A stretch of DNA of 59,642 nt, the filler included. It is 10 parts of 10 records of this genome, joined end to end, with 100 filler letters (N's around TTAATTAATTAA, not from the genome) between each part and the next. Parts side by side here need not be neighbours in the genome. Positions count along the whole stretch, not along the records: positions 30,257 to 36,719 come from SRR31156797_99640; 9 more parts are not named here. One strand, given 5' to 3'. The position numbers and the translations under genes were made by a program. The notes below the pieces were generated by a model. The model was not told the DNA's origin and did no database searches. It saw nothing but the letters and a program-made list of their open reading frames with translations. Shown here one piece after another: positions 7,273-54,290 of the stretch (within the stretch, counting starts at the first letter, position 1; every line of letters begins with the position of its first letter).

Positions 7273-7372
7273 NNNNNNNNNNNNNNNNNNNNNNNNNNNN
7301 NNNNNNNNNNNNNNNNTTAATTAATTAANNNNNNNNNNNNNNNNNNNNNNNNNNNNNNNNNNNNNNNNNNNN
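7273..7372. other. artificial contig linker
   Basis: N-run/TTAATTAATTAA/N-run, 100 nt, stops in all six frames. Confidence 0.97.
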
Positions 7373-13043: not shown

Positions 13044-13143
13044 NNNNNNNNNNNNNNNNNNNNNNNNNNNNNNNNNNNNNNNNNNNNTTAATTAATTAAN
13101 NNNNNNNNNNNNNNNNNNNNNNNNNNNNNNNNNNNNNNNNNNN
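13044..13143. other. artificial contig linker
   Basis: N-run/TTAATTAATTAA/N-run. Confidence 0.97.
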
Positions 13144-13867: not shown

Positions 13868-14955
13868 AATGCCACCACCGGTATTTTAAGATGTGTTGCT
13901 GGCTGATTTTTGATTATCCTGTTGAATTCATCCTGGCTTGCAGGTTCCATACCCATGGTCCTCAGGCGTCTGATAACGCTTTTTGAGTCTCTGTCCCTTT
14001 CTTCGAGTTCCCTGTCATAGTTGACAACGCCTTCAAGTGAAGAATCAGAGGATATTATTGATGTGACAACATTTGCACCTGCATTCAGACGGTGGACCAT
14101 ACCATCGATTCCCTCAAGGTCGAGAGATGCTGGTATAAGTCTGTCAGGGAACATCAGCCTGAGAACTGAGATTATCTTCAGTTCTGAGAGACTGGATCCC
14201 TGGTCCACTTCCTCAAGGGGGGTTCCTTCCTGTGGAACGAATGTCATAACACGCACCATGTCAGGATATCCTTTTTGCATTCCCCGAAGCGATCTTATGG
14301 TTGATTCGATATCATTACCAACACCAGTAAGTATGCCGTCCTCGACACAGTACCCGATGTCTCTTGCAAATTCCCTTGCATGGCTCCTTTCTTCGAATGA
14401 CTGCCCGACCCTCAGTTTCCGGTAGAGTTCCTTATCGTGTGTTTCCTGGTAGAGGGCAAGGAAATCAGCTCCGTTCTCATGGAGTTTTGTAAGTGTCTTG
14501 TCGTCCATGACACCTGGAGATATCATAATAGGGAGTCCTGTCTCTTCCTTTACTGCCCTTACGACCTCAACGAACCTCTCAGGATCATTGTGGAAATAGG
14601 GATCTTCTCCCATTGTGAGATCAACCATATGGATGTTCTCGTTCTTCACTGCCCTTGCTATGCTGCGTATCTCGTCCATGTCCAGGCGGTAGCGCTGTAT
14701 GTCGTTACACCTGTTGTAGTAACAGAAGGCGCAGTTGTTCCTGCAGTATGTTGAGAAGTAAACGAAGCTGTAGAGGAAGACCCGGTTGCCGAAGAAGTGG
14801 TCCCTCACTTTTCTTGCAACATAGTGCAGTTTCTCTATGTCCTCTTCATCTGTCAGGGAAAGAAGTTCCCTTAGGTTATCATTTGTGAGCTTACAGCCTT
14901 TTATTATATGCTCTGCAACAGTATCGAGGTCCCAGTGATCTGTATTCTTTATCAT
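13864..14955 (-). CDS. pylB: methylornithine synthase (radical SAM lysine mutase)
   Basis: CRNNCAFC radical SAM motif, DLTMGED, PASLD, GANVVTSII; between pylS and pylC. Confidence 0.95.
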   Translation of the reverse strand: MIKNTDHWDLDTVAEHIIKGCKLTNDNLRELLSLTDEEDIEKLHYVARKVRDHFFGNRVFLYSFVYFSTYCRNNCAFCYYNRCNDIQRYRLDMDEIRSIARAVKNENIHMVDLTMGEDPYFHNDPERFVEVVRAVKEETGLPIMISPGVMDDKTLTKLHENGADFLALYQETHDKELYRKLRVGQSFEERSHAREFARDIGYCVEDGILTGVGNDIESTIRSLRGMQKGYPDMVRVMTFVPQEGTPLEEVDQGSSLSELKIISVLRLMFPDRLIPASLDLEGIDGMVHRLNAGANVVTSIISSDSSLEGVVNYDRELEERDRDSKSVIRRLRTMGMEPASQDEFNRIIKNQPATHLKIPVVAL

Positions 14956-14964
14956 GATGGCACC

Positions 14965-16323
<1,359 letters not shown>

Positions 16324-16923: not shown

Positions 16924-17061
16924 ATGAACAAAATAATCACTTTGAATAAATACGTGGATTGTTGTGTCCGCGAGAATTCTCCCGTAACTGGAATATAGGC
17001 CGGAGCCGGCTACCCGATGGGTATGCCTCTTTCCCAGAAAACGAACCTGAGTTATCCATGA
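16924..17061 (+). CDS. candidate pyrrolysine-containing leader peptide (45 codons, UAG at codon 25)
   Basis: GAGGTG RBS before ATG 16924; MNKIITLNKYVDCCVRENSPVTGI-(TAG 16996-16998)-AGAGYPMGMPLSQKTNLSYP-TGA; the TGA overlaps the GAGGTGA RBS of the permease. Confidence 0.5.
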
Positions 17062-17070
17062 GGTGAGCGC

Positions 17071-18602
17071 ATGAGCAGTAAAGCGGATGCATCTCAGCCC
17101 GGTATTGACTGGGAACACGGTCCCCAGTGCAGTAAGAACATATGTGACCCACAGGAACTTGAGAGAACTATAGACTGGAAACAAGGTCTTGCAATAGCAC
17201 TGGGTGTTCCCCTGCTTATCCTTCCTTCTATAGGTACCTCACAAGTTATGTCTGGTCCTTTGCGATAGTCATCTGGGGGGCTACGGTACTTCTTGGATTC
17301 CTGCAGAACTTCGCTTTCGGAGAACTGGCAACAGTATTCCCAAAAGCTTCGGGTCTTCCAGGCTATACGCAGACGGTCTTTGGTTCCGATAAGGACAAGA
17401 ACAACAAAGGTAAATTCAAATTCGGTAAGTTCATCGGCGGTTTCAGCGCCTGGAGTTACTGGTTCGGATGGAGTCCTGTCCTTGCCATCTATGCTATACT
17501 GATATCTAGCTATATCCAGGGGATGGTCCCTGCACTTGCAGGTATCAATGAGACTCTACTGGCACTGGTTATTGGTGGATTCATTTTCGGTTCTCTTGCA
17601 ATTATCAATGCAAAGGGACTCAAGAATGGAGCAGCTGCCGGAGTCATTTTAGCTGCTATCTCCTTGGTACCTCTTCTGGTCATCACCATTGCCCCATTCT
17701 TTACCGGTGATTTCCAGATGTCAAATATCACAAATTCATGGTTCCCTTCAGACTGGAGTTGGGACTGGGAGCACATACTCATCCTTCTCGGACTTCTTGC
17801 AATGGCAGAATGGAGTGCTGCTGCATGGGAAACTGCTGCTATCTATGGTCCTGAGTATAAGAAACCGAATTCAGATATACCAAAGGCATTGCTTGTTTGT
17901 GGAGCAATATGCCTTGTACTATATGTACTTGTACAGACATCAGTCATCGGTGCACTTGGAGTTGAGGGAGTTCTTGCAGAACCTATCTCACCAATGCTTC
18001 CACTGGCAAACATGTCACTTGGTCCAATCGGCGCTTCCATTTCAATTGTAATGTTGATAGGTGCAATGCTTCTGATTATCCAGACAGCTTTCCTCTCATC
18101 TGCACGTTCCATATATTCAATGTCACTTGAAGGAAACCTACCATCGGTTCTGAGCAAGCTGAATAAACACGGGCATCCCATGAACGCTATGATCGCTGAT
18201 GCAGCCTTCAACATGTTCCTTATCCTTCTTGGAACACCAACGGCTATACTGGCTGCTTCTGCTATCGGTTACATTTGTGCCAATGGTATCAGTCTTTACA
18301 CCTATGTAAAGGTCAGGAACGACCCTGAGCTCTCAAAACTGGAAAGACCTTTCAAGGCCCCAAGGGGATGGAAGAGCGTTGTTCTGGCAACTACAATACT
18401 GAACACTCCTCTCTTCCTGATAGGTATAATATACCTCAACAGCCTTGAACTCGGATGGGAAACAACAGGTGTTGGCTTTGCAATGCTCTGTTTATTCATT
18501 CCTCTCTGGATATACTCCCAGCGTGAGAACAGGAACAGAATGCCTGTAGCTCATGCAGAGCACAGGGAACATGGTATACTCGACCCAGAACCGGTTCCTT
18601 AA
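17071..18602 (+). CDS. APC-family methylamine permease (MtmP/MtbP-like) with a 1-nt frameshift near 17235
   Basis: LERTIDWKQGLAIALGVPLLILPSIG continues in the -1 frame as YLTSYVWSFAIVIWG..GELATVFPKASGLPGY into ORF 17523-18602 (AWETAAIYGPEY, LERPFKAP). Confidence 0.82.
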
Positions 18603-19338: not shown

Positions 19339-19438
19339 NNNNNNNNNNNNNNNNNNNNNNNNNNNNNNNNNNNNNNNNNNNNTTAATTAATTAANNNNNN
19401 NNNNNNNNNNNNNNNNNNNNNNNNNNNNNNNNNNNNNN
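19339..19438. other. artificial contig linker
   Basis: N-run/TTAATTAATTAA/N-run. Confidence 0.97.
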
Positions 19439-24764: not shown

Positions 24765-24864
24765 NNNNNNNNNNNNNNNNNNNNNNNNNNNNNNNNNNNN
24801 NNNNNNNNTTAATTAATTAANNNNNNNNNNNNNNNNNNNNNNNNNNNNNNNNNNNNNNNNNNNN
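24765..24864. other. artificial contig linker
   Basis: N-run/TTAATTAATTAA/N-run. Confidence 0.97.
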
Positions 24865-30156: not shown

Positions 30157-30256
30157 NNNNNNNNNNNNNNNNNNNNNNNNNNNNNNNNNNNNNNNNNNNN
30201 TTAATTAATTAANNNNNNNNNNNNNNNNNNNNNNNNNNNNNNNNNNNNNNNNNNNN
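30157..30256. other. artificial contig linker
   Basis: N-run/TTAATTAATTAA/N-run. Confidence 0.97.
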
Positions 30257-30314
30257 TCAGAGCATGCGGCTCATATCCGCAGAGTCACTGGTTCAAATCC
30301 AGTCACCGCCACCA
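30257..30314 (+). tRNA. tRNA-Met (CAT, probably elongator), 5' truncated
   Basis: anticodon arm TGCGG-CTCATAT-CCGCA, T-arm ACTGG-TTCAAAT-CCAGT, 3' CACCGCC-A-CCA. Confidence 0.88.
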
Positions 30315-30402
30315 GTAAAAAACCAGCCCGGCATTGACATTTTCCCGTCCGATCTTATTTTTTTCGTGTTAATACGCCAATACGAACCTCTGGTGTAAGT
30401 AT

Positions 30403-30924
30403 ATGGCCTCTTTCAAAAAAAACGACCTTACGGTTGTCAGCGACGCTCTGGAAATTGCAGAAGACGCAACGGGAAATTTCTATAAATTTTCCCTGGGGCA
30501 ATGGAAACGGCACCGCTATGATGTCAAGACCCGGTCTTCCCTTAAAACGGAAGGGATGAGCACTTCCGCACTGGCGGTTTTGTTCAAAGGGATGCGGATG
30601 GTGGACGATTTTAGCCCTAGAACAAAAGGTAGAGATTTTTATTTCATCTGCCTCCAGGATCATTCAATCCTGGAGGTTCTGAAACGTGACCGTTATCTCG
30701 CACTTTTTCCGCTCCTTATTTATGTTTTCACCCATGAGTTGGTCCATATCGTAAGGTTCTGTAACTTTTATCAAAGGTTTGATGTATCTGAAAAAAATCG
30801 GGTCAGAGAGGAAGAGATCGTCCATAAAACCACCTTTGAAATTTTAAAGGATTTTTCTCTGCCGAACTTAAATTATGTCCTTGATTCCTATCGGGACCAC
30901 AGAATGTGCGAGATTGTTTCTTGA
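30403..30924 (+). CDS. hypothetical protein with HExxH motif (zincin-like)
   Basis: 173 aa; THELVH followed by REEE. Confidence 0.7.
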   Translation: MASFKKNDLTVVSDALEIAEDATGNFYKFSLGQWKRHRYDVKTRSSLKTEGMSTSALAVLFKGMRMVDDFSPRTKGRDFYFICLQDHSILEVLKRDRYLALFPLLIYVFTHELVHIVRFCNFYQRFDVSEKNRVREEEIVHKTTFEILKDFSLPNLNYVLDSYRDHRMCEIVS

Positions 30925-30948
30925 ATGTGAAGGAGGAGTTATTTAAAA

Positions 30949-31266
30949 ATGCCGATTTATGAATATGAATGTGATAAATGCGGGCACCATGTGGAGGCTT
31001 TGCAGAAAATTACGGATCCCCCGATTATTGAATGTGACCAGTGCCACTCCGATATGAAAAAGCTTATCAGTCAGAGTACTTTTCACCTGAAGGGGACCGG
31101 ATGGTATGTAACCGACTACGCCTCTAAGAATAAAAACAGCCAGGTGGAGGCAAAAGAAAAGGCATCTTCCGGTAGCGATACGGCGAAGAAAAAGGTCGAA
31201 GCAAAAACCGCGACGGAAAAGGCGACAAAAAAGGATGCGTCAGGCCCTTCTAAGGGTAAAGATTAA
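30949..31266 (+). CDS. FmdB family zinc-ribbon protein
   Basis: [38 protein letters not shown]. Confidence 0.9.
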
Positions 31267-31293
31267 TCTCAATGTGAAGGGTGAAGGTTTCCT

Positions 31294-31848
31294 ATGCATA
31301 CCAGGGATAGTGGCAGGGTTCACGAAAAATTGGTCAAGCGGCTGGAGCGCCAGGAAAAACAGCTTGCTTATCAGCAGGGAAGGTTTTTTCGGTATAAACT
31401 GGTTGAAATCCATGGAAAGCTGATGCAAGTGCTGTTGCAGGAAGAAATCATAGAAACAGACAATGCAGCGGCCGTTTCGAGCGCCCTGATGAAGGGTGTA
31501 AAAAAAGCAGCGAACAGTACGGAGTTTGATTTCACATATTTCATTTCACCCATCCGCACGTTGGTTTCCCGTCCAAACCCCTACTCTCTTTACATGACAC
31601 AGTATCTTATGGAAGTGCTTATCAATGATCCCTCGGTCATTGAAATCTATGGGACCGATGAGGAAATATACCATGTGATTAACAGGGTTATCAGCCAGAG
31701 CAGTATCCAGTTCGATGAGATGGAGCGGGAGATTGATGCACAGCTGGCGCGCAACCGGAAACTGGTGCCGGGTTCCGCCGCTTATCAGGTGGCAAAGGAT
31801 GAGATGTTCAGAAAAAAAGTGGGAGACCCCAAGAGCGAAACCCGCTAA
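31294..31848 (+). CDS. hypothetical protein (DUF507-like C-terminal region)
   Basis: 184 aa helical ORF in operon-like spacing; IEIYGTDEEIY, PGSAAY motifs. Confidence 0.65.
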   Translation: MHTRDSGRVHEKLVKRLERQEKQLAYQQGRFFRYKLVEIHGKLMQVLLQEEIIETDNAAAVSSALMKGVKKAANSTEFDFTYFISPIRTLVSRPNPYSLYMTQYLMEVLINDPSVIEIYGTDEEIYHVINRVISQSSIQFDEMEREIDAQLARNRKLVPGSAAYQVAKDEMFRKKVGDPKSETR

Positions 31849-31863
31849 TGACAGGAGTTTTTC

Positions 31864-32805
31864 ATGGGCCATAAGATAGCATTTCTATTTCCGGGGCAGG
31901 GGTCGCAGTTTGTGGGCATGGGGCAGGCGCTGGCGGAACAATTTCCCGGGGTCGGGCATATTTTCAGGGAAACGGACCGGATCTGTGGAAAACCCATCAC
32001 CCATCTTTCTTTTGAAGGGCCCATGTCGGAATTGACCCTTACGGAGAATTGTCAGCCGGCCATTACGGCCGTCAGTCTGGCCTCCCTTTCCGTGCTGAAT
32101 GAATCTGGCGTGAAACCAAGTGTTTCCGCGGGACACAGCGTGGGAGAATGTGCTGCAATGGTTTCAGCGGGTATCCTCAGTGAAAGCGATGCCCTTAGAG
32201 TGGTGCACAAAAGGGGTGTGTTGATGCATCGGGAAGCCCTGGCCAATCCCGGTCACATGGCGGCTGTGATCGGTCTGGATATGGAAGCGGTCCTGGAGAT
32301 TGTGGCGGAAGCAAAGAATGGTGGGATCCTCGATGTTGCCAACCACAACACGGCCCAACAGATCGTCATCACAGGCCAAAAAGATCCCGTGGCACGGGCG
32401 GTCAAAATGGCCAAAGAGAAAAAGGGGAAGGCCATCCCCCTGAAGGTCAGCGGCGCCTGGCATTCGGGACTCATGCGGGGTGGCGTGGATGAATTCAGGG
32501 CGTTCATGGAAGATATCCCCTTTTCCCCCCCCCGGTCGGATATGATTTTTAATGCCACGGCCCGATGTGAAACCGATCCCGAGCGTATCAAGGATATCAT
32601 GGCCAACCAGTTGGTGAGCCCGGTGAAATGGTACGATATCATGCGAAAGATGCTGGATGACGGCGTGGATACCTTCGTGGAGGTGGGTCCCAAAAAAGTA
32701 CTGGCCGGGTTGCTCAAGAAAATCGCCTCCCCCGATGATGCCATAAACGTGTTCACGGTCCAGGACCCCAAGGGCCTGGAAAGCGTTCTGGAAAAGATCT
32801 CCTGA
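31864..32805 (+). CDS. fabD: malonyl-CoA:ACP transacylase
   Basis: FPGQGSQ, GHSVGE catalytic motif, VSGAWHS, FVEVGP. Confidence 0.93.
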   Translation: MGHKIAFLFPGQGSQFVGMGQALAEQFPGVGHIFRETDRICGKPITHLSFEGPMSELTLTENCQPAITAVSLASLSVLNESGVKPSVSAGHSVGECAAMVSAGILSESDALRVVHKRGVLMHREALANPGHMAAVIGLDMEAVLEIVAEAKNGGILDVANHNTAQQIVITGQKDPVARAVKMAKEKKGKAIPLKVSGAWHSGLMRGGVDEFRAFMEDIPFSPPRSDMIFNATARCETDPERIKDIMANQLVSPVKWYDIMRKMLDDGVDTFVEVGPKKVLAGLLKKIASPDDAINVFTVQDPKGLESVLEKIS

Positions 32806-32838
32806 AGCCTTTCATCTGCTGCTCCCAAAGCTCAGTAA

Positions 32839-32892
32839 GGTGCAGTCTCAGCCATTCGTAAATGGCTGGAAAGCCAAGGGGTTACACCATGA
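32839..32892 (+). pseudogene. hicA: 3' remnant of a HicA toxin gene
   Basis: GAVSAIRKWLESQGVTP-TGA resembles HicA C-termini; ATGA overlap with hicB; in-frame TAA immediately upstream, no start. Confidence 0.65.
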
Positions 32893-33224
32893 ATATCATG
32901 ACGGTGGAAGGGCGTAAGGCCAAAATAGAATATGATCCCGAGATCGACATGTTTCGGGGTGAAATTCTTGGGCTCAACGGCGGGGCTGATTTCTTTGGTA
33001 AAACACCGGATGAGTTGCGCTTAGAGTTCAAAAAATCATTGAAGGTATTTCTTGATGTTTGTAAGGAAAAAGGTGTCGAACCCTATAAAAAATATTCCGG
33101 GAAATTCAACCTTCGCATTCCTTCTGAATTGCACGCTGAAATAGCGTCGAGAGCTTCAGCAGACGGCAAGAGCCTGAACCAATGGGTTGTTGAAACCTTA
33201 GATCAAATTGTTCATGGTCTTTAG
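32889..33224 (+). CDS. hicB: HicB family antitoxin (RHH C-terminus)
   Basis: MNIMTVEGRKAKIEYDPEIDMFRGEILGLNGGADF, YSGKFNLRIPSELH, SLNQWV. Confidence 0.9.
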   Translation: MNIMTVEGRKAKIEYDPEIDMFRGEILGLNGGADFFGKTPDELRLEFKKSLKVFLDVCKEKGVEPYKKYSGKFNLRIPSELHAEIASRASADGKSLNQWVVETLDQIVHGL

Positions 33225-33244
33225 AAAGAACTCTCGTAATCCCA

Positions 33245-33619
33245 CTATTCCGTAATCCCGGGACATTCCCTGATGACTTGATCCTTGTGTTTCCTGAAAT
33301 GATCCCAGAAAGGGAACTGGCGGCATTGAAGGGGTCTGGCGGCATAGATTGAACATCTTTTTGGAGGGTTTTCCAGAAAGATACATTCAAAATCGCGTCC
33401 ATTATGCCGCTCCTTGATGGATAATCCGTTGTCCACTCGGTTGAGATATGTTTGGATGAAGTCGATGGAATTGATATTTAAAAAACTGCGGATCTGAAAA
33501 ATTTCCTGTTGGTTTACCCAGACACGGCCCGCTTCCCCTCGGCAGCATCGGCTCGGGCAGTCTGTGCAAGCCTCGGGGTCGAAGCCGAAATCAAACCCTT
33601 CCCTTCGGATGATGCTCAT
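33245..33619 (-). CDS. YkgJ family cysteine-cluster protein
   Basis: CTDCPSRCC, CIFL..CSIYAARPLQCRQFPFW, ECPG. Confidence 0.88.
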   Translation of the reverse strand: MSIIRREGFDFGFDPEACTDCPSRCCRGEAGRVWVNQQEIFQIRSFLNINSIDFIQTYLNRVDNGLSIKERHNGRDFECIFLENPPKRCSIYAARPLQCRQFPFWDHFRKHKDQVIRECPGITE

Positions 33620-34149
33620 GCCCGCATCTCTTTTTTTCGTTTCTTTTCATGCTCAAGCAGATACCGCTTAACATCCAGTCCGCTGCCGAAACCGCCGAGT
33701 CCCCCGGCGGCAAGAACCCGGTGTCACGGAAAGATCAGCGGCAGGGGATTCCTCCCCATGGCCTGCCCCACGGCCCGGGCCCCTTTTGGGTTCCCCGCCA
33801 TGGCCGCCACCTGAGAGTAGGTCCTGGTTTCTCCGAAAGGGATCTTGGCGATGGCTTTCAAGGCCGACCATTGAAAGGGGGTGCAGGCGATATCCAGGGC
33901 CGGACCTTCTTGAAATTCCCCATTGGAAAAGGCCGCTTCAACGGCCCGTTGAAGGGACCGGTTGGCACCGCGATCTTCCCGCAATTCCGAATTGGGATAT
34001 AGTCCTTTAAAAAAGCCCCTTGCATCGAGGTTTGAATCCAAGCGGATTCCGATGCGAAGCGCCCCTTTTTCCGTTGAAGCCATGTGAACATAGAGCCGGT
34101 CCAGTTTTATGCCCCAGCAGTAGATTTCGGGTATAGACGCCCCTGCCAT
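33616..34149 (-). CDS. ogt: O6-alkylguanine-DNA alkyltransferase with selenocysteine (UGA 33724-33726) at the catalytic position
   Basis: TPFQ..[66 protein letters not shown] RBS; true stop overlaps the next ATG (ATGA 33616-33619). Confidence 0.85.
33691..33711 (-). promoter_or_regulatory. bacterial SECIS-like hairpin
   Basis: GCCGCCGGG-GGA-CUCGGCGGU 9-bp stem with G-starting apical loop, beginning 12 nt after the in-frame UGA. Confidence 0.65.
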
Positions 34150-35036
34150 GTCTCCCTCCTTTCAAGGGTCTCCTGAATGGTCTTGAGGTTCTCCATTTTT
34201 TGAGCTGCCCAGTCCGGGGCCAAAAGATCGGATTTTCCGGGATCCCCGGTGAGCCGTTGAATCACCATGTCAGGGGGGAGAAGTTCCAGAAAGTCCGCCA
34301 CCAGGTTCGCATATTCATCCCTTTTAAGACAGCGGAATGCCCCTTTCTCATAAAGTCGGGCCAAAGGGGTTCCGCGAATCACGTAAAGGAGATGGATCTT
34401 GACGCCGTGGATGGGCAATTTTGATATGAACCGGGCCGTTTCCAGCATCATGGGGCGGTCTTCACCGGGAAGCCCCAGAATTATGTGAGCGCAGATATTG
34501 AGGCCGAAGCCGTGGGTCAGACGAGCCGCCCGTTCAAAACAGGCGACGGAATGCCCCCGGTTGATGGTTTGAAGGGTTTTGTCGTGGGCCGACTGCAGAC
34601 CGTACTCCATCCAGACCAGATAGTCCTTCCTGTAAGCGCTGATCACTTCAAGGATCTCCTCGTTGACGCAATCGGGCCGGGTGCCCACCGAGAGACCCAC
34701 CATGTCGGGATGGCTTAAGGCTTCATGGTAGAGATCCCTTAAGTGGGGAACCGGCGCGTAGGTGTTGGTGAAGGATTGAAAATAGGCGATGAATTTTCGG
34801 GCCTTATACCGTTTGCGGATGAACCTTTCGGCATCGGCGATCTGCCGGGAGATGGATTCCCGACCTTCCGTAAAAGCGCCGGTGCCCGATCCGCGCCCGT
34901 CGCAGAAGATGCATCCGCCCCTGGAAACGGTTCCGTCGCGATTGGGGCACCCGAGTCCCGCATCCAGTGAAATGCGCTGCACCCGTTCGCCGAATTGTTC
35001 CCTGAGGTAGGTGTTAAAATCCCGATATCTTTTCAA
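34107..35036 (-). CDS. TIGR01212/YhcC-family radical SAM protein
   Basis: CPNRDG..GCIFC, AYFQSFTNTY, GTRPDC, EYGLQS, HIILGLPGE, IQRLTGD. Confidence 0.9.
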   Translation of the reverse strand: MKRYRDFNTYLREQFGERVQRISLDAGLGCPNRDGTVSRGGCIFCDGRGSGTGAFTEGRESISRQIADAERFIRKRYKARKFIAYFQSFTNTYAPVPHLRDLYHEALSHPDMVGLSVGTRPDCVNEEILEVISAYRKDYLVWMEYGLQSAHDKTLQTINRGHSVACFERAARLTHGFGLNICAHIILGLPGEDRPMMLETARFISKLPIHGVKIHLLYVIRGTPLARLYEKGAFRCLKRDEYANLVADFLELLPPDMVIQRLTGDPGKSDLLAPDWAAQKMENLKTIQETLERRETWQGRLYPKSTAGA

Positions 35037-35280
35037 GAGGATTCCTTTCTCTACAGGGGGCAGTTGTCAGTGTTCAGTTATCAGGGGCAGAAAATCAGCC
35101 CTGCCCCCTGATAACTGCACCCTTTGATCATGATATGAGATGAATGCAGCCTTGAGCAAGTGCTTTTCCATCCCATTATGTTTTTTATGGGTCATATTTT
35201 GATTGACTTACAGTAAAACTTTCAGTATTCATACCCTTGCGTCATGAGGTAAACAGTTTTTGGCAAAGGAGCGGTGACCC

Positions 35281-35886
35281 ATGAAATTGACGGACAGGCA
35301 AAAGCAGGTTTTAAGCTATATTTCCAGCTATATGGATGAATGGGGGAAGGCGCCGTCCTTTGATGAAATCCGTTCCCATTTTGGATTTGCGTCTTACAAT
35401 ACCGTGTCCACCCATCTCAATGCCCTGGAAAAAAAGGGGTATATCCGCCGGCCGAAAGAAAAAAATAAAAAGCGCGCCATCGAAATTATCAGCCCCGTGG
35501 AGACCCGACGATTTGAATGGCCCCTGCTGGGCCGGGTGGCGGCAGGTTCACCCATTGAAGCCATCGAGGATCCGGACGTGGTGGAGGTGCCGCCTTCCAT
35601 GGCCAATGAGGGAGATTGTTTCGTTCTTCAGGTGAAGGGAGTCTCCATGGAGGAAGCCGGCATTTTGGACGGCGACTTTGTGGTGGTGCGGAAACAGGCC
35701 ACGGCAAAGAACGGAGAGATCGTGGTGGCTTTGGTGGACAACGGGGCCACGGTGAAACGGTATTACCGGAAAAAAGATCATGTGGAACTTCGGCCGTCCC
35801 ATGGGGAGATGCCGTCCATCCGTGTTCGGGATGAAAATTTTTGCATCGAAGGAAAAGTCGTGGGGGTCATGAGGTACTATCGGTGA
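35281..35886 (+). CDS. lexA: SOS repressor LexA
   Basis: N-terminal wHTH, GRVAAG cleavage site, GVSM (Ser), TVKR (Lys). Confidence 0.93.
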   Translation: MKLTDRQKQVLSYISSYMDEWGKAPSFDEIRSHFGFASYNTVSTHLNALEKKGYIRRPKEKNKKRAIEIISPVETRRFEWPLLGRVAAGSPIEAIEDPDVVEVPPSMANEGDCFVLQVKGVSMEEAGILDGDFVVVRKQATAKNGEIVVALVDNGATVKRYYRKKDHVELRPSHGEMPSIRVRDENFCIEGKVVGVMRYYR

Positions 35887-36719
35887 CGAGGTTCTCCAAT
35901 CATCGCAGCATTATTCATCTTCATATCGCGGCCCTTCCCATTGCCGTGGCCCGGGTTTCCCGGGCCACGCTCCGGAACCGCCCCGTGGCCGTGGCACCGC
36001 TTCAGTCGGATCGGCCGGTACTGCTGTCCGTTTCCGGTGAAGCCCGGCGTGAAGGGGTTTTTAAGGGGATGCCCCTAAAAAAGGCCGTGAAAAGATGCCC
36101 GGGGCTCAAGGTCCTCCCCCCGGATCCCGAGGCTTCGGAGAAAGCCTGCCGGCATCTGGCCCGGGTGGCGGCCCGGTACACGCCGATCTGGGAACCGTCG
36201 CGGCCGGGACATCTATACCTGGATCTCACCGGTGCTGAGCGGCTGTGGGGACCGGTTCATGATGCGGCCCGGCGTTTTCAAAAAGAGGTCCGGGATCATT
36301 TGGGTTTGTCCGGAACCCTCGGCGTCGCCGCCAACAAGCTGGTTTCCAATGTGGCTTCCCGTCTCCTGCCGCCGGGAAGGGTGGGGATGTTCAATGTGGC
36401 ATATGGCCGGGAAGCCGATTTTATGGCCCCCTTACGGGTGGATGTGGTTCCCGGCATCGGGCGTGTGCGTCAAAAGACCCTTTTGGAAGACCTCAATATT
36501 ACCCGTGTCGGAGAGTTGGCGGCCATGGATGTGGGTCGCCTGAAATTACTTTTCGGCCGCAGGGCTCCCCTGATCCATCAATACTCCCTGGGGATTGATG
36601 CGACCCCGGTATATGCACGGGCCAAAAAACCCATGGTGAGCGAATCAGCCATGCTGCCCCAAGGGGAAAATGATGATGGAAAGCTTCTGAAAACGTTCTG
36701 GCGTCTGGTGGAGACCTGT
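35883..36719 (+). CDS. Y-family polymerase homolog (ImuB/DinB-like, catalytic acidic residues absent), 3' truncated
   Basis: GTGA overlap with lexA; EARREGVFKGMP, GVAANKLVS, PGIG; IIHLHIAAL and SRPGHLYLD replace HxDMDAF and SIDEAxLD. Confidence 0.8.
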
Positions 36720-36819
36720 NNNNNNNNNNNNNNNNNNNNNNNNNNNNNNNNNNNNNNNNNNNNTTAATTAATTAANNNNNNNNNNNNNNNNNNNNNNNNN
36801 NNNNNNNNNNNNNNNNNNN
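36720..36819. other. artificial contig linker
   Basis: N-run/TTAATTAATTAA/N-run. Confidence 0.97.
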
Positions 36820-39278: not shown

Positions 39279-40958
39279 GTGATTATGTCGAAAAAAAAAG
39301 ATGCTTTGGAGATCATCAACGATCCTGCCAATTTTACGTCCCGTACCGACCACCTGGCTTCACTGGACAAGGACCCGGACAGGGTCGGTGAACCGCCGCC
39401 CAAACCAGAAAAAAAAGGGTTGTCCCGCCGGGGCTTTTTGAAGATAGGCGGGGCCGCGGCCGCTGCCGCCACGGTTGGGGGCGCCGGCGCCGCCGGATTT
39501 GCCATCGGCCGCTCGGACGATGCCTATACCGGCTACAACCGGACCTACCAGGGCGGGGACATGTTTTTCAACCGTGAACCCTTCCGGGTGGACCTGCCGA
39601 CGTTTTTCAAGCCGGTGGGCAAGGTGGAGCGCCCCGACTGGACCGAGTTCCTGTTCCAGCGCAAGCATGTGATCATGGAGCTCATTCAAAAGGGGGAGTG
39701 GACCCCGGACATGGGGCTTGGGAACCTCCCAGGGCCCGTGGGCGACTACTATCGCAGCAGGCCCCGGCAGGATTATGACAATATGATGCTCTCCCTTGAA
39801 AATAGCGTCACCCGGGCGGAGGCCTGGCGCGCCGGAAAGCATAAGCGCTATGCCATTGCGGATGCCTACAACGCTTCCTTCAGGAGCACGGGCATGTACA
39901 ACCGCTACGGGTCCACCATTCCCGAGGAGCCCACGGAAAAGCACATGGAGACCGGCAAGCTCATTCCCCCGGAAGAGTGGGATTTTCGTCATATCTGGCG
40001 GAAGGAACCCATGGCCTTCAAATCCCCGAAACATGCGTCCAAACTGATCAAGCGCATGGCCCACATGTACGGCATGTCCCTGGTGGGGATCACCAAATTC
40101 GATTCCCGGTTCATGTTCAAGGGGCTCATGCGGGGCATGCCCCACCAGGGACACGACAGCTGGGGAGACAAGGTGCCCGGACACTGGAAGAGCATCATCG
40201 TGTTCGGCGTGCCCATGTACTGGGACAGCACCTATTCCGCCGTGGGATACTCCACCTCCTTTGACGCCTACTTCCGGTCCCGGTGTGCGTCAGGGCTTCT
40301 GGAGCGGTTTATCCAGGAGCTGGGATATCCCGCCCGGGCCCAGTTCCCCGGCCATCATTATGAGATCATGATGAGTCCCTTTGTGCAGCTGGCGGGGTTG
40401 GGGGAGTACAGCCGGGCAGGGGTGGTGATGGTGCCGGAACTGGGGGCCAACTTTCGGCCCGCCGCAGTGATCACCAACATCGAGTTTGAATATGACAAAC
40501 CCATCAGTGTGCGCATGGCGGATTTCTGCAAGAAGTGCAAGATCTGCGCGGAAACCTGTCCCTCCGGGGCGATTCCCAAGACCGATGAACCGGAGACGGT
40601 GATCCGGGGATTCAAGCGGTGGCGGCTGGATGAGGAAAAATGCCACCTCCAGTGGTGCAGCGGCCCCACCAGCGACGGACTGGGCTGCCGGGTGTGCATC
40701 GGTGTCTGTCCCTATTCCCGGAAGAACACCTGGATCCACGCGATCTCCCGGGAACTGGAACCCAGGGATCCGACCCACCTGGTGTCCACCGGGCTTCTGG
40801 CCATGCAGACCAATTTTTTCAAATACCCGGAAGCCGAGGAGTTCAAGTCGGATTGGGACGGCGGCAAGGAAGCCAACTATCATAAGGCGCCCTGGTGGAT
40901 GCGCAGCGACAATTTTTTCGAGATCGAGAAGACCTGGGAATACCACGGCATGGAGTAA
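39279..40958 (+). CDS. rdhA: reductive dehalogenase catalytic subunit (start 39279 or 39285)
   Basis: Tat motif SRRGFLK; SLVGIT, FIQELGYPARA, AGLGEYSRAG, CKKCKICAETCP and C..CRVCIGVCP Fe-S motifs. Confidence 0.92.
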   Translation: MIMSKKKDALEIINDPANFTSRTDHLASLDKDPDRVGEPPPKPEKKGLSRRGFLKIGGAAAAAATVGGAGAAGFAIGRSDDAYTGYNRTYQGGDMFFNREPFRVDLPTFFKPVGKVERPDWTEFLFQRKHVIMELIQKGEWTPDMGLGNLPGPVGDYYRSRPRQDYDNMMLSLENSVTRAEAWRAGKHKRYAIADAYNASFRSTGMYNRYGSTIPEEPTEKHMETGKLIPPEEWDFRHIWRKEPMAFKSPKHASKLIKRMAHMYGMSLVGITKFDSRFMFKGLMRGMPHQGHDSWGDKVPGHWKSIIVFGVPMYWDSTYSAVGYSTSFDAYFRSRCASGLLERFIQELGYPARAQFPGHHYEIMMSPFVQLAGLGEYSRAGVVMVPELGANFRPAAVITNIEFEYDKPISVRMADFCKKCKICAETCPSGAIPKTDEPETVIRGFKRWRLDEEKCHLQWCSGPTSDGLGCRVCIGVCPYSRKNTWIHAISRELEPRDPTHLVSTGLLAMQTNFFKYPEAEEFKSDWDGGKEANYHKAPWWMRSDNFFEIEKTWEYHGME

Positions 40959-43271: not shown

Positions 43272-43371
43272 NNNNNNNNNNNNNNNNNNNNNNNNNNNNN
43301 NNNNNNNNNNNNNNNTTAATTAATTAANNNNNNNNNNNNNNNNNNNNNNNNNNNNNNNNNNNNNNNNNNNN
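43272..43371. other. artificial contig linker
   Basis: N-run/TTAATTAATTAA/N-run. Confidence 0.97.
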
Positions 43372-49003: not shown

Positions 49004-49103
49004 NNNNNNNNNNNNNNNNNNNNNNNNNNNNNNNNNNNNNNNNNNNNTTAATTAATTAANNNNNNNNNNNNNNNNNNNNNNNNNNNNNNNNNNNNNNNNN
49101 NNN
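49004..49103. other. artificial contig linker
   Basis: N-run/TTAATTAATTAA/N-run. Confidence 0.97.
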
Positions 49104-49199
49104 AGACGGGTATGGAATGCATGGGTCTGCAGCCGTCGGTTTGGCCAAATCACTGGTTCAACCCGAAACCAGAAAATAAAGTTGAAAAAGGAGACCCTT

Positions 49200-49997
49200 A
49201 TGCAACTGGTGGGCGAACTGATCAATGCCAGTCGAAAAAAGATTGCGGACATGATTCAATCCCAGGACAGGGCCGCTATTGAATCCGTGGCACAGGCGCA
49301 GGCCGAACATCGGGTTGATTTTATCGATGTTAATGCTGGAATTTTCGAAGAGCAGGAAAGCGCATATCTTCAATGGCTGGTTGAAATTGTACAGGCCAAA
49401 ACCGGAATGCCCTGCTGCATTGACAGCCCTAATCCAGCGGCAATCGAGGCGGCTGCGAAAGTGCATACCGGCGCCCCCCTTATCAATTCCATCTCACTGG
49501 AAAAAGCGCGTTATGACAATTTATTACCCCTTTTGGCGGGAACAGATTGGAAAGTGGTGGCCCTGTGCATGAGTGACGAGGGGATGCCCGAAACCACCCG
49601 ATCGCGCCTGACCAATGCCGAAAAATTGATCACCGGCCTGGTTCAAAACGGCGTTCCAACGGACAATATTTACGTCGATCCGCTGGTTCAGCCGGTAGCG
49701 ACTGGCCACCGGCAGGGCAACGCCTTTTTGGAAAGCGTCAAAACCATCGCTTCTCGATTTGATGGCGTCCACACCATTTGCGGTCTTTCCAATATTTCTT
49801 ACGGTCTTCCGCAGAGAAGCCTGATCAATCAATCTTTTGCAGCAATGGCCATTGCCCATGGTTTGGACTCTGCAATTATCAATCCCCTGGATGACGGATT
49901 GATGGCCACCATTGTAGCCGCCGAGGCGTTGGCTGGTAGGGACGAGTATTGCATGAACTATCTGATGGCATTTCGTCAACAACGCCTTGCGCTATGA
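49200..49997 (+). CDS. methyltetrahydrofolate:corrinoid methyltransferase (AcsE/pterin-binding family)
   Basis: GELINASRK, IDVNAG, CIDS, INSIS, YVDPLV, GLSNISYGLP, DSAIINP; GGAG RBS before ATG 49200. Confidence 0.88.
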   Translation: MQLVGELINASRKKIADMIQSQDRAAIESVAQAQAEHRVDFIDVNAGIFEEQESAYLQWLVEIVQAKTGMPCCIDSPNPAAIEAAAKVHTGAPLINSISLEKARYDNLLPLLAGTDWKVVALCMSDEGMPETTRSRLTNAEKLITGLVQNGVPTDNIYVDPLVQPVATGHRQGNAFLESVKTIASRFDGVHTICGLSNISYGLPQRSLINQSFAAMAIAHGLDSAIINPLDDGLMATIVAAEALAGRDEYCMNYLMAFRQQRLAL

Positions 49998-50082
49998 GAG
50001 TGAGGCAAAACGAATATCTCAAAAGGTCTGATCTGGCTGCCTTTGGCGTTATCGATCCATCCCAACTCAATAAGGAGGTACA

Positions 50083-51150
50083 ATGAATTCAGCAGAAAGA
50101 ATGGGCGCTGTACTTATGCAAAAAAAACCGGACCGGGTACCTGTGCTGCCGTTTATTCATGCAGCGGTCACCAAAACCACTGGAATCAGCTACAAAGAGT
50201 TCTGGTCCAATGCAGATTCATACTTTGACGCCCATTTCAGCGCCATGCGGTTGTTCGGATATGAACAAAGCCCGCTGTTCGGATATGCCGCCTGCGGTCC
50301 CAAGGAATTCGGTGGCAAAGTCGGTTTGCCCGAAGAGCCTGGATCCGTTGCACCCTACGTGATCGAACCCTTGGTGAAAACGACTGAAGACATCGATCAA
50401 CTTGAAGTACCCGACTTCAAAGAGGGAGCCCTGCCCGGTAATTACGGTATGGCTGATCGTGTCGGCGAACGCTGCTCTGAACTGGGAATGCCGGTTGGAT
50501 TCCAGGCCGGAAGTATTTTTTCCGCAGCTGCACAGATCGCCGAGACCACCACCTTTTTGACGTGGACCCTCACAAATCCGGATGCCGTCCACAAGTTGAT
50601 GGAAAAAGTCACCGGTCTTTACCTCAACGCACTGGATTATTTCGCCGACAAGTTTGGCGGACAAAATTGCCTTCCCTTTCAAGCCGGCCCCATGGAAGCC
50701 AATGGAATGATATCACCCGACCAATTCATGGAGTTGGTGTATCCGTACCTGTTGAGAATCAACCAGCGCATCAAGGAGCTGGGAATCATGGCGTCCTTCA
50801 TACATCCCTGCGCCGACCAGAACGGAAATATTCCGGCTTACGTTAAAATGCGCGAAGCCTGTGACTGGCACGGGCGCTACATCTGGTTGTTCGGCCCGGA
50901 AACCTCTGTTGCGGATCAAATGAAAGCCTTTGGAGCGCACGATATCATTTGCGGCAATGTGGATCCCGGAGTGATTCATGAAAAATCCTATGAAGAAGTG
51001 CTTCAACTGTGCAAAGAACAAATCGAAGTGGGCAAGGACAACCCGGGAGGCTTTTTTCTTTCGGCCGGTTGCGACTTCCCCGTTGAAGCATCTCCCATCA
51101 AACTGATGGCCTTTATGGATGCGGCCGAACAGTTCGGCAGATACGATTGA
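50083..51150 (+). CDS. uroporphyrinogen-decarboxylase-family methyltransferase (MtaA/CmuA-like)
   Basis: PDRVPVLP, ISPDQF, HPC zinc motif, GNVDP, LSAGCD. Confidence 0.85.
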   Translation: MNSAERMGAVLMQKKPDRVPVLPFIHAAVTKTTGISYKEFWSNADSYFDAHFSAMRLFGYEQSPLFGYAACGPKEFGGKVGLPEEPGSVAPYVIEPLVKTTEDIDQLEVPDFKEGALPGNYGMADRVGERCSELGMPVGFQAGSIFSAAAQIAETTTFLTWTLTNPDAVHKLMEKVTGLYLNALDYFADKFGGQNCLPFQAGPMEANGMISPDQFMELVYPYLLRINQRIKELGIMASFIHPCADQNGNIPAYVKMREACDWHGRYIWLFGPETSVADQMKAFGAHDIICGNVDPGVIHEKSYEEVLQLCKEQIEVGKDNPGGFFLSAGCDFPVEASPIKLMAFMDAAEQFGRYD

Positions 51151-51214: not shown

Positions 51215-51756
51215 TCATTTCAGTGATCGGTAATAACTGTTGAGCGTATAGATGGCAGCCAGTGGATTGTGCCCCAAAAGACGGTCTTTAACGGCCAGCA
51301 CCGTGCAGGGTGCCTGACAGTATTTAAAGAGCAGCGAATCATGGCCCACGCACAGTCCCATTAAAACAGTGAATTCCACCTTAGCGTCATTGAGCACAAA
51401 AGCCTGGGCGATGGGGTTGCACATGGATTCAAATTTACCGGGCTGGATTTTTTGATCTTCTTGAAGGCCGATATCTTCTTTCGGCTTACAACCAAGTTTG
51501 CAGCACACCGAGACCACTTCAAAACCGCTATCAACCAATAGGCGGTTTACAGCGCGGGCCTCTTCGTTGAGGCCAATGCAAAAACCAACCCCAAGCGTTT
51601 AAAATTCATTTTGTGAGCGAACTCGATGGTTTCCTGAATACGGGGTGTGACAGGTTTCACATGTTCGTAACCCTTTTCCTTGTCCCCATACCCTTCTCCT
51701 TCCTGAATAGCAACACTGCGGACAAATTCAAAATTTTCCTTTTTCGCAATCCGCAC
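51215..51756 (-). pseudogene. DUF1847 family protein, frameshifted and apparently lacking its N-terminus
   Basis: IQEGEGY..PRIQETIEFA..KRLGLVF|CIGL..SVCCK..MCNPIAQA..GLCVGHDSL..VKDRLLGHNP; one T missing from a T-run near 51580-51584. Confidence 0.75.
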
Positions 51757-54190: not shown

Positions 54191-54290
54191 NNNNNNNNNN
54201 NNNNNNNNNNNNNNNNNNNNNNNNNNNNNNNNNNTTAATTAATTAANNNNNNNNNNNNNNNNNNNNNNNNNNNNNNNNNNNNNNNNNNNN
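54191..54290. other. artificial contig linker
   Basis: N-run/TTAATTAATTAA/N-run. Confidence 0.97.

What the first reader, a model, noticed from the sequence alone, without database searches (positions are those of the whole stretch)
33616..34149. Selenocysteine at the suicide active site of a DNA alkyltransferase (Ogt)
Seen: the ORF track stops at ...NPLPLIFP, but the next codons are TGA-CAC-CGG-GTT, i.e. the invariant PCHRV motif with Cys replaced by UGA. The frame continues with the normal C-terminus ([19 protein letters not shown]) to a stop overlapping the next gene's ATG. A 9-bp hairpin with a G-starting loop begins 12 nt after the UGA. Known: bacterial Sec insertion uses UGA plus an adjacent SECIS, and Ogt is consumed stoichiometrically by alkyl transfer. 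Inference: a 177-aa selenoprotein spending one Sec per repair. From memory, Sec forms of this family have been predicted computationally in deltaproteobacteria; I know of no biochemical characterisation, including whether methyl-Sec can be recycled.
Basis: partly seen in the sequence, partly recalled or inferred. Interest (0 to 1): 0.78.

Follow-up and report, generated by a model that had tools for sequence, protein, structure and literature searches.

The report
Selenocysteine DNA alkyltransferase (Ogt), known kind
This is a real gene for a DNA-repair alkyltransferase that uses selenocysteine instead of the usual active-site cysteine, a type first predicted in 2005 and still never studied biochemically in its natural form.

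Summary
A 177-codon ogt gene (33619-34149) has TGA (33726-33724) exactly where all solved alkyltransferases have the PCHRV cysteine. The frame then continues for 35 conserved codons.

The TGA is not an accident. It is shared by 53 of 58 orthologs examined, including 48 of 105 genomes of one Desulfobacteria-type family. The 3' segment is under purifying selection (pN/pS 0.14). A hairpin 13 nt after the UGA meets the published bacterial SECIS model, shows compensatory changes, and is kept in 45 of 47 Sec forms against 2 of 29 Cys forms with the same peptide spacing.

The relatives' genomes carry tRNA-Sec, SelA, SelB and SelD. An independent assembly of the likely source run reproduces the TGA.

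No genome is held for the window's own organism, so its Sec machinery is inferred from relatives.

The kind is already in print: CHY0809 of Carboxydothermus hydrogenoformans (2005), metagenome surveys and reviews. An engineered human AGT with Sec at residue 145 is active in vivo.

New here are the breadth of the clade, one likely ancient origin with several reversions to Cys, and a conserved overlap with the tRNA-modification gene mnmL.

Interest is moderate to low: a new member of a known kind.

The parts
33619..34149 (-). ogt coding sequence, 177 codons, with Sec (U) at codon 142. The terminal TGA lies at 33618-33616.
   Evidence: Translation with TGA=U. Pfam PF01035, E = 5e-30, residues 91-169. 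NCBIfam TIGR00589, 95.3 bits against a cut-off of 46.4. Best solved structure by sequence: 4wxc, E = 8e-24, with U142 aligned to the active-site Cys. AlphaFold model pLDDT 87.7, matching full-length AGT structures.
33724..33726 (-). In-frame UGA read as selenocysteine, replacing the Cys of the P-C-H-R-V motif.
   Evidence: TGA at this aligned site in 53 of 58 orthologs and TGC in 5. Cys (TGC/TGT) in 76 of 80 metagenome homologs. Confirmed by an independent assembly.
33691..33711 (-). Core SECIS hairpin: 8-9 bp GC-rich stem with loop GGA, 21 nt between the UGA and the apical loop.
   Evidence: Folds. Upper helix paired in 94.6% of cells across 52 distinct sequences, with compensatory changes at two pairs. 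At least 7 of 8 pairs in 45 of 47 Sec forms against 2 of 29 Cys forms. Meets the published bSECIS constraints.
33686..33721 (-). Extended hairpin, including a weaker lower stem.
   Evidence: Best local hairpin -18.2 kcal/mol. In the alignment the lower helix is paired in only 78.8% of cells, with little covariation, so it is weakly supported.
34107..35036 (-). mnmL/ytqA-type radical SAM gene. Its 3' end overlaps the ogt start by 43 nt.
   Evidence: TIGR01212, 378.7 bits against a cut-off of 180; Pfam Radical_SAM plus Radical_SAM_C. The overlap with ogt is conserved in 56 of 58 loci.
33245..33619 (-). Downstream CxxCxxCC (YkgJ-type) gene. Its ATG overlaps the ogt stop (ATGA).
   Evidence: Pfam PF03692, E = 5e-11. 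A 124-aa ORF stands in the same place in L004 but not in L001-L003, so it is not a conserved partner.
35281..36767 (+). Divergently transcribed lexA and an impB/dinB-type polymerase gene; the polymerase gene is cut by the end of the contig piece.
   Evidence: Pfam LexA_DNA_bind plus Peptidase_S24, and IMS. This is context only. The adjacency is not seen in L002 or L004.

Best explanation
The gene encodes a two-domain O6-alkylguanine-DNA alkyltransferase (Ogt/AGT) whose alkyl-accepting residue is selenocysteine. When the ribosome reaches UGA142, SelB carrying Sec-tRNA(Sec) binds the GC-rich hairpin that starts 13 nt downstream (the SECIS) and Sec is inserted, giving a 177-aa protein. Without selenium or SelB, translation would stop there and give a 141-aa fragment lacking the active site. 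By analogy with the Cys enzymes, the protein binds DNA through its helix-turn-helix, flips out O6-alkylguanine (Arg125 and Tyr111 are conserved), and the selenolate of U142 takes the alkyl group in a single irreversible step. The likely benefit is that Sec is ionised at neutral pH and is a stronger nucleophile. Shown here: the recoding signals, their conservation, the fold, the catalytic residues, and the Sec machinery in relatives. Inferred: actual Sec insertion, DNA repair activity, single turnover, and the nature of the benefit.
For: 1. Family: Pfam PF01035 E = 5e-30. TIGR00589 95.3 bits. 47 PDB sequences at E <= 1e-5, best 4wxc at 8e-24, with U142 aligned to the PCHRV Cys. The model (pLDDT 87.7, pTM 0.82) matches full-length OGT, Ada-C and human AGT over 160-172 columns. 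Y111, R125, N134, P141, R144 and E168 are invariant and H143 nearly so in 45 aligned clade members.
2. TGA conserved: 53 of 58 orthologs have TGA and 5 have TGC. 48 of 105 genomes of one family carry the TGA form. In the class, 17 further genomes have an in-frame TGA in the match; the site was not checked for these.
3. Translation beyond the UGA: for the 26 codons after the UGA, pN/pS = 0.138 with pS = 0.352. For the 60 codons before it, pN/pS = 0.246 with pS = 0.353 (9 sequences, 36 pairs).
4. SECIS: the upper helix is paired in 94.6% of cells. Pair 28-45 is GC 36, GU 8, AU 3; pair 31-42 is GC 44, CG 3, GU 2, AU 1. 0 of 500 shuffles reach the observed pairing or covariation score, and slid registers give 31-57%. 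45 of 47 Sec forms keep at least 7 of the 8 pairs, against 2 of 29 Cys forms with the same peptide spacing. Loop, stem, G position, 21-nt spacing and -18.2 kcal/mol all fit the model quoted in PMC13188914.
5. Machinery in relatives: tRNA-Sec 5 of 5, SelB 5 of 5, SelA 4 of 5, SelD 4 of 5 with its own in-frame TGA. SelB is present in 44 of 48 TGA-form genomes.
6. TGA is otherwise a stop here: it ends 17 of 42 complete ORFs in the window, ogt itself included.
7. No assembly error.
8. An engineered human AGT with Sec at 145 protects E. coli from MNNG and is active even with N137A (PMC4150793, passages).
Against: No genome is held for the window's own organism. The window's other nine contig pieces show no Sec machinery and no second selenoprotein gene, so Sec competence of this host is inferred from relatives. 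The hairpin's free energy is not unusual: z = -0.91 against shuffles, and 9 of 79 Cys homologs, mostly GC-rich, fold as well as the median Sec form. The hairpin lies in codons for a conserved Gly-rich peptide, so part of its conservation is protein-driven. Compensatory events are few (7 cells in two pairs) and the statistics are not corrected for phylogeny. The lower stem is weak (78.8% paired). Two TGA forms are odd: L128 has lost the hairpin through a 6-codon deletion, and L138 has Pro in place of the His after the UGA. No RNA, protein or selenium evidence exists.
Confidence: 0.93

Rival explanations
1. The TGA is a true stop in this organism. The gene is a pseudogene, or it makes only a 141-aa truncated protein without an active site, perhaps acting as an alkyltransferase-like damage sensor.
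For: By table 11 the ORF ends at 141 aa. TGA is a normal stop in the window. Sec machinery is not shown for this host. One ortholog, L128, carries the TGA without the hairpin.
Against: The 26 codons after the TGA are under stronger purifying selection than the codons before it, at equal synonymous divergence. There are no frame disruptions in 53 TGA forms down to about 43% identity. The hairpin is conserved with compensatory changes. Residues needed only by a full-length enzyme (H143, R144, E168) are conserved.
Confidence: 0.03
2. The UGA is read through, but not as Sec. It could be decoded as Cys or Trp by near-cognate or suppressor decoding, or under a reassigned genetic code.
For: Every TGA form has C directly after the UGA. 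From recall, that is a weak termination context. No direct evidence of selenium exists.
Against: TGA ends 17 of 42 complete ORFs in the window, so the code is not reassigned. The TGA co-occurs with a SECIS-type hairpin that Cys forms lack and with SelB in 44 of 48 genomes. The aligned residue in homologs is Cys, the classic Sec/Cys pair.
Confidence: 0.02
3. Sec is inserted, but the protein is not a one-shot DNA repair protein. The Se-alkyl adduct may be resolved so that the protein turns over, or the protein may serve the co-transcribed MnmL tRNA-modification step as an alkyl acceptor or donor.
For: The mnmL 3' end overlaps the ogt start in 56 of 58 loci across the clade. MnmL lies upstream of two more distant Cys homologs, L044 and L068. 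Keeping costly Sec in a stoichiometric protein across a whole class is unexpected.
Against: All DNA-binding and base-flipping residues of canonical AGTs are invariant, and the fold is a canonical AGT. The Cys revertants keep the same mnmL linkage, so the linkage is not tied to Sec. Overlapping genes tend to stay together by descent. The two MnmL papers have 0 occurrences of 'ogt', 'alkyltransferase' or 'methylguanine'.
Confidence: 0.04

Closest known systems
CHY0809, the Sec-containing methylated-DNA-protein-cysteine methyltransferase of Carboxydothermus hydrogenoformans (Wu et al. 2005, PMC1287953). It is listed as a prokaryotic selenoprotein family in PMC1976440, PMC2398784, PMC9312934 and PMC13188914, and in algae as 'MDP' in PMC7539508.
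   Same: Same protein family (PF01035) and the same idea: UGA/Sec in place of the active-site Cys, with a stem-loop just downstream. It was also predicted by Sec/Cys homology and never assayed (passages read).
   Different: Different lineage: a Firmicute, against a Desulfobacteria-type clade here. I could not fetch CHY0809, so I did not test whether the two Sec forms share an origin. The 2005 paper called its case unique and recent. Here the Sec form is the majority state of a large clade: 48 of 105 family genomes, in one clade of the tree.
Engineered human AGT C145U (Haruna et al. 2014, PMC4150793)
   Same: Sec at the same catalytic position. It is active in vivo against MNNG damage, and Sec makes the enzyme independent of Asn137 (passages).
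   Different: It is artificial: Sec is inserted at UAG by EF-Tu without a SECIS. The natural protein here keeps Asn134, His143 and Glu168.
Canonical Cys-type Ogt/AGT (M. tuberculosis OGT 4wxc/4bhb, E. coli Ada-C 1sfe, human AGT 1eh6)
   Same: Two-domain fold, helix-turn-helix, Arg finger, Tyr, Asn hinge, H-R-V after the nucleophile, and C-terminal Glu.
   Different: Sec instead of Cys, and about 33% identity to the nearest solved structure.
Alkyltransferase-like (ATL) proteins (e.g. S. pombe Atl1, 3gva)
   Same: Same C-terminal DNA-binding domain.
   Different: ATLs lack the nucleophile and the N-terminal domain. They match the model only over 83-88 columns. Here the nucleophile position is kept as Sec.

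Membership tests
O6-alkylguanine-DNA alkyltransferase (Ogt/AGT; PF01035, TIGR00589) | C-terminal DNA_binding_1 (helix-turn-helix) domain | tested here: met
   PF01035 E = 5e-30, profile positions 1-80 of 81. TIGR00589 95.3 bits against a cut-off of 46.4.
O6-alkylguanine-DNA alkyltransferase (Ogt/AGT; PF01035, TIGR00589) | Active-site P-C-H-R-V motif with the alkyl-accepting Cys | tested here: met
   P-U-H-R-V: every position is kept except that Cys is encoded by UGA. U142 aligns with the Cys of 4wxc and 4wxd. Strictly the residue is Sec, not Cys.
O6-alkylguanine-DNA alkyltransferase (Ogt/AGT; PF01035, TIGR00589) | Arg finger, Tyr, Asn hinge and C-terminal Glu of the active-site network | tested here: met
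   R125, Y111, N134 and E168 are invariant and H143 nearly invariant in 45 clade members, and they align with the PDB homologs. The functional names of these residues are recalled from the AGT literature and from PMC4150793.
O6-alkylguanine-DNA alkyltransferase (Ogt/AGT; PF01035, TIGR00589) | Two-domain AGT fold, N-terminal domain included | tested here: met
   Model pLDDT 87.7. Foldseek: 4zye E = 4.9e-12, 4wxc TM 0.69/0.74, over 160-172 aligned columns. Pfam finds no N-terminal domain family.
O6-alkylguanine-DNA alkyltransferase (Ogt/AGT; PF01035, TIGR00589) | Stoichiometric alkyl transfer from O6-alkylguanine in DNA | not testable with these tools
   Needs biochemistry.
Bacterial SelB-dependent selenoprotein | In-frame UGA aligned with Cys in homologs and conserved among orthologs | tested here: met
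   53 TGA and 5 TGC among 58 orthologs. 76 of 80 metagenome homologs have Cys.
Bacterial SelB-dependent selenoprotein | SECIS hairpin just downstream: 3-9 nt loop, 4-16 bp upper stem, G in the first two loop positions, 16-37 nt spacing, MFE <= -7.5 kcal/mol (PMC13188914, Fig. 2 legend) | tested here: met
   3-nt loop GGA, 8-9 bp stem, 21-nt spacing, -18.2 kcal/mol. Conserved with compensatory changes and lost in Cys forms.
Bacterial SelB-dependent selenoprotein | Coding sequence continues under selection after the UGA | tested here: met
   pN/pS 0.138 downstream against 0.246 upstream, with equal pS.
Bacterial SelB-dependent selenoprotein | selA, selB, selC and selD in the same genome | tested here: inconclusive
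   No genome is held for the window and none of these genes is in the window. They are present in relatives' genomes.
Bacterial SelB-dependent selenoprotein | Selenium in the protein | not testable with these tools
   Needs 75Se labelling or mass spectrometry.

The most novel reading that the evidence does not exclude
Sec was fixed once, long ago, in an Ogt lineage that is translationally coupled to the anaerobic tRNA-modification enzyme MnmL. It has been kept because this protein is not a simple suicide enzyme. Either its Se-alkyl adduct can be resolved so that the protein turns over, or it exchanges alkyl groups with the MnmL pathway. If so, it would be the first regenerable or dual-purpose alkyltransferase.
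Probability: 0.05. Interest if true: 0.8.

Novelty: new member of a known kind. Interest (0 to 1): 0.35.

Why it matters
Almost all selenoproteins are redox catalysts, where the cost of Sec is repaid over many turnovers. An alkyltransferase is consumed by its own reaction, so a Sec form is an unusual case for asking what Sec offers beyond redox catalysis: reaction rate, a low pKa, or independence from an activating network. That question has been open since the first prediction in 2005. In the four literature searches I ran I found no biochemical study of a natural Sec form, only the engineered human one. This locus adds material rather than a new idea. The Sec form is the usual state of a large clade of sulfate-reducer-type bacteria. 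Its SECIS is supported by covariation. Natural Sec/Cys ortholog pairs exist, for example L101 (Sec) and L100 (Cys) at 87.9% identity, and these would make a clean comparison possible. For annotation, these genes are called as 141-aa fragments by standard gene callers.

Tried and rejected
- Search of the window's own genome: no genome is held.
- tRNA and Rfam scans of the window: no tRNA and no family at gathering score.
- Pfam on 51 window ORFs: no SelA, SelB or SelD.
- Search for other TGA- or TAG-interrupted genes in the window by reading through flanking stops: no convincing second selenoprotein. This is uninformative for 57 kb.
- The window is ten contigs joined by spacers, with GC from 0.40 to 0.57. 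The pieces may not share an organism, so I did not use the pyl cluster as evidence about the ogt host.
- Hairpin energy as evidence: rejected as insufficient on its own. z = -0.91, and 9 of 79 Cys forms fold as well as the median Sec form.
- Synonymous-site constraint over the hairpin with only five sequences: 0.16 against 0.29, too few sites.
- Radical-SAM neighbour as a possible 'methyl-Sec recycling' enzyme: it is an MnmL/YtqA equivalog, whose known reaction is tRNA cmnm5s2U demodification (abstract). The idea is kept only as a low-probability reading.
- RNA evidence: no RNA holder listed.
- Small-share runs X2, X3 and X6 gave only short contigs of relatives.
- PYLIS_2 hit next to pylS (25.9 bits, below the gathering score of 36): no mtbB-like frame was found with TAG read through.
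- My first regex missed the 'IFP*HR' forms. This was corrected.
- One paper reading failed on a term format and was re-asked.
- The metagenome scan used two patterns, one of which demands a Cys codon. Its ratio of 4 TGA to 76 Cys is therefore biased against Sec forms and is not a frequency.
- Direction of change on the tree (one gain and five losses, or several gains) was not tested with a rooted tree or an AU test.

Full report
**What is in the sequence.**
The feature is on the minus strand. By table 11 there is a 141-aa ORF, 33724..34149 (-), ending ...NPLPLIFP. The stop is TGA (33726-33724), followed by CAC CGG GTT. Read with TGA=U, the frame runs 177 codons...[41 protein letters not shown]. 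It ends at a TGA (33618-33616) that overlaps the ATG of the next ORF.

Twelve bases after the internal UGA comes GCCGCCGGG-GGA-CTCGGCGGT (33711-33691), a 9-bp hairpin with a G-first loop.

The window itself is ten contigs of 5.1-7.3 kb joined by N44-TTAATTAATTAA-N44 spacers. The finding lies in the piece 30257-36719. GC differs between pieces from 0.40 to 0.57, so the pieces need not come from one organism.

**The protein is an alkyltransferase.**
- Pfam gives PF01035, E = 5e-30, over residues 91-169.
- NCBIfam gives TIGR00589 'ogt', 95.3 bits against a cut-off of 46.4.
- Against PDB sequences there are 47 matches at E <= 1e-5. The best is M. tuberculosis OGT (4wxc, 8e-24), with U142 aligned to the Cys of PCHRV.
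- An AlphaFold model built on 45 clade members has pLDDT 87.7 and pTM 0.82.
- Foldseek matches full-length two-domain alkyltransferases over 160-172 columns: 4zye at 4.9e-12, 4wxc with TM 0.69/0.74, 1sfe, and human AGT. ATL proteins match only 83-88 columns.
- In the 45-sequence alignment Y111, R125, N134, P141, residue 142, R144 and E168 are invariant and H143 is nearly so.

**The TGA is conserved.**
- A scan of species-representative genomes found four close relatives, 72-76% identical. All four have TGA at the site and share synteny. A Desulfovibrio homolog has TGC.
- A metagenome scan kept 80 loci. Four have TGA and 76 have TGC or TGT. One of its two search patterns required a Cys codon, so this ratio is biased against Sec forms.
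- Searching the GTDB family of one relative, with stops read through, gave matches at E <= 1e-10 in 90 of 105 genomes.
- I fetched the 49 best new matches. Among 58 sequences in all (the window, 4 genome loci, 4 metagenome loci and these 49), 53 have TGA at the active site and 5 have TGC.
- So 48 of 105 family genomes carry the TGA form, at identities down to about 43%.
- In the class (209 genomes), 17 more genomes outside the family have a full-length match with an in-frame TGA. I did not check the site in these.
- In 37 of the 48 TGA-form genomes no second alkyltransferase match was seen at E <= 1e-10. Eleven do have one (my count from the table; MAG incompleteness applies).

**The frame is translated past the UGA.**
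For nine close sequences (36 pairs), the 26 codons after the UGA give pS = 0.352 and pN = 0.048, so pN/pS = 0.138. The 60 codons before it give pS = 0.353 and pN/pS = 0.246. TGA is otherwise an ordinary stop: it ends 17 of the window's 42 complete ORFs, ogt itself included.

**The hairpin behaves as a SECIS.**
Its energy alone proves nothing. The z-score is -0.91 against shuffles, and 9 of 79 Cys homologs fold as well as the median Sec form.

The comparative evidence is stronger. In an alignment of all 53 TGA forms:
- The upper helix is paired in 94.6% of cells.
- Two pairs change on both sides: 28-45 (GC 36, GU 8, AU 3) and 31-42 (GC 44, CG 3, GU 2, AU 1).
- 0 of 500 shuffles reach the observed pairing or covariation score.
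- Slid registers give 31-57% pairing.
- The lower helix is weak (78.8% paired).

As a control I scored the same eight pairs in Cys-form homologs that encode the same peptide spacing. 45 of 47 distinct Sec forms make at least 7 of 8 pairs (mean 7.57). Only 2 of 29 Cys forms do (mean 4.31). Mann-Whitney p = 1.7e-13, not corrected for phylogeny. One of those two Cys forms is L100, which sits inside the Sec clade.

The hairpin meets all four constraints of the published bacterial SECIS model: 3-9 nt loop, 4-16 bp stem, G in the first two loop positions, 16-37 nt spacing, and MFE <= -7.5 kcal/mol (PMC13188914, Fig. 2 legend). Here the values are loop GGA, 8-9 bp, 21 nt and -18.2 kcal/mol.

There are exceptions. 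L128 has lost the hairpin through a 6-codon deletion. L102 has one extra codon in the loop. L138 has Pro instead of His after the UGA.

**Sec machinery.**
No genome is held for the window. The window holds no tRNA, no Rfam family at gathering score, and no SelA, SelB or SelD.

I searched five genomes: four with the TGA ortholog and the Cys-form Desulfovibrio MAG.
- tRNA-Sec is over the cut-off in 5 of 5.
- SelB is over the cut-off in 5 of 5.
- SelA is over the cut-off in 4 of 5. The fifth match is cut by a contig end in a 2.2-Mb MAG.
- SelD is over the cut-off in 4 of 5, each with its own in-frame TGA.

SelB is over the cut-off in 84 of 105 family genomes and in 44 of the 48 with the TGA form. 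The four misses are MAGs of 2.0-2.7 Mb.

**Not an assembly error.**
Logan's contig from the likely source run (10,017 bp, depth 36.3) matches 33300-34500 with 0 differences. A 350-nt contig from another study covers the TGA and lists no difference there. This is not independent of the source sample.

**Evolution.**
I built a quick maximum-likelihood tree of 125 near-full-length sequences, 50 Sec and 75 Cys. Ten of 135 rows were dropped for length: L024, L116 and L146 (Sec) and seven Cys rows.

All Sec forms fall in one clade of 58 tips, with 8 Cys forms nested at five places. The tree needs 6 changes, and 3 are forced by well-supported branches.

The simplest reading is one old Cys-to-Sec change followed by reversions. 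The root is a midpoint root and I did not test the direction. The nearest natural pair is L101 (Sec) and L100 (Cys), 87.9% identical.

**Context.**
The upstream gene (34107-35036) is an MnmL/YtqA equivalog: TIGR01212, 378.7 bits. This radical-SAM enzyme demodifies cmnm5s2U in tRNA anaerobically (bioRxiv 10.64898/2026.05.18.725915, abstract).

Its 3' end overlaps the ogt start by 43 nt. This overlap is kept in 56 of 58 clade loci, Cys forms included. The two misses are cut at contig ends.

Among 81 other loci, seven have MnmL upstream. Five are clade members: L018 and L019 (TGA forms) and L021, L022 and L023 (nested Cys forms). The other two, L044 and L068, are more distant Cys forms.

The two MnmL papers have 0 occurrences of 'ogt', 'alkyltransferase' or 'methylguanine'. 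The downstream CxxCxxCC gene is not a conserved partner.

**What is known.**
- Wu et al. 2005 described CHY0809 of C. hydrogenoformans as a Sec-containing methylated-DNA-protein-cysteine methyltransferase with a downstream stem-loop, and called it unique and recent (PMC1287953, passages).
- The family is listed among known selenoprotein families in the Olavius symbiont metagenome (2 Sec sequences, unassigned; PMC1976440) and in GOS (1 sequence; PMC2398784).
- Two reviews list it as well (PMC9312934; PMC13188914). It also appears in algae (PMC7539508). For all of these I read passages only.
- Human AGT with Sec at residue 145, made by an engineered EF-Tu system, protects E. coli against MNNG. 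It stays active with N137A, where the Cys form is dead (PMC4150793, passages).
- Four searches found no biochemical study of a natural Sec form. The library lacks most subscription journals, so this is not proof of absence. I did not read the supplements of these papers, and they may list deltaproteobacterial members.

**Verdict.**
This is a genuine Sec-Ogt gene (about 0.93) and a new member of a known kind. Interest is moderate to low (0.35).

Noticed in passing
window 7273-7372, 13044-13143, 19339-19438, 24765-24864, 30157-30256, 36720-36819, 43272-43371, 49004-49103, 54191-54290: The window is ten contigs joined by N44-TTAATTAATTAA-N44 spacers. GC of the pieces ranges from 0.40 to 0.57, so they may come from different organisms.
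   Followed up: partly
window 13088-16305 (-): Pyrrolysine cluster. It holds a full-length fused PylS (446 aa; NF007083 at 720 bits, with both the PylS_Nterm and PylS_Cterm models), PylB (TIGR03910, 567 bits) and PylC (TIGR03909, cut by the piece end). From recall, the fused form is the archaeal arrangement; the Olavius delta1 bacterium has split pylSn and pylSc. This piece has GC 0.43. No tRNA-Pyl was found by ARAGORN or Rfam.
   Followed up: partly
window 16996-17090 (+): Weak match to Rfam PYLIS_2 (mtbB pyrrolysine insertion sequence): 25.9 bits against a gathering score of 36, E = 0.0015. No mtbB-like frame was seen with TAG read through. Probably chance.
   Followed up: yes
window 34107-34149 and L001-L004, L018-L023, L098-L145: The 3' end of mnmL (TIGR01212 radical SAM) overlaps the ogt start in 56 of 58 clade loci, Sec and Cys forms alike. 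MnmL is also adjacent to two more distant Cys homologs, L044 and L068. I found no mention of this pairing in the two MnmL papers checked.
   Followed up: partly
L128:562-633, L138:169-240, L102:178-249: Three odd TGA forms. L128 lacks the hairpin through a 6-codon deletion and may be decaying. L138 has U-P-R-V instead of U-H-R-V. L102 has one extra Gly codon in the hairpin loop.
   Followed up: no
G001:C218, G003:C135, G004:C1, G005:C7 (selD matches): SelD in the relatives carries one in-frame TGA. From recall, SelD is itself a selenoprotein in many bacteria.
   Followed up: no
window 39279-40958 (+): A 559-aa protein with 4Fe-4S motifs scores just below the reductive dehalogenase model: TIGR02486, 157.6 bits against a cut-off of 160.35.
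   Followed up: no
window 51215-51538 (-), 56922-57533 (+), 17523-18602 (+): Three ORFs match only the C-terminal part of their Pfam families: DUF1847 positions 79-157 of 157, GlcNAc 2-epimerase 154-328 of 347, and AA_permease_2 113-415 of 427. The upstream stop is TAA for the DUF1847 ORF, and the other two were not flagged as TGA- or TAG-interrupted. These look like frameshifts or truncations rather than recoding.
   Followed up: partly
window 49182-51150 (+): Corrinoid methyl-transfer genes: a methyltetrahydrofolate:corrinoid/iron-sulfur protein methyltransferase (NF005719, 328.6 bits) and a weak MtaA/CmuA-type URO-D family protein.
   Followed up: no
window 35281-36767 (+): lexA and an impB/dinB-type polymerase gene lie divergent to the mnmL-ogt operon. 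A shared SOS-type control region at 35037-35280 is possible, but it was not examined.
   Followed up: no
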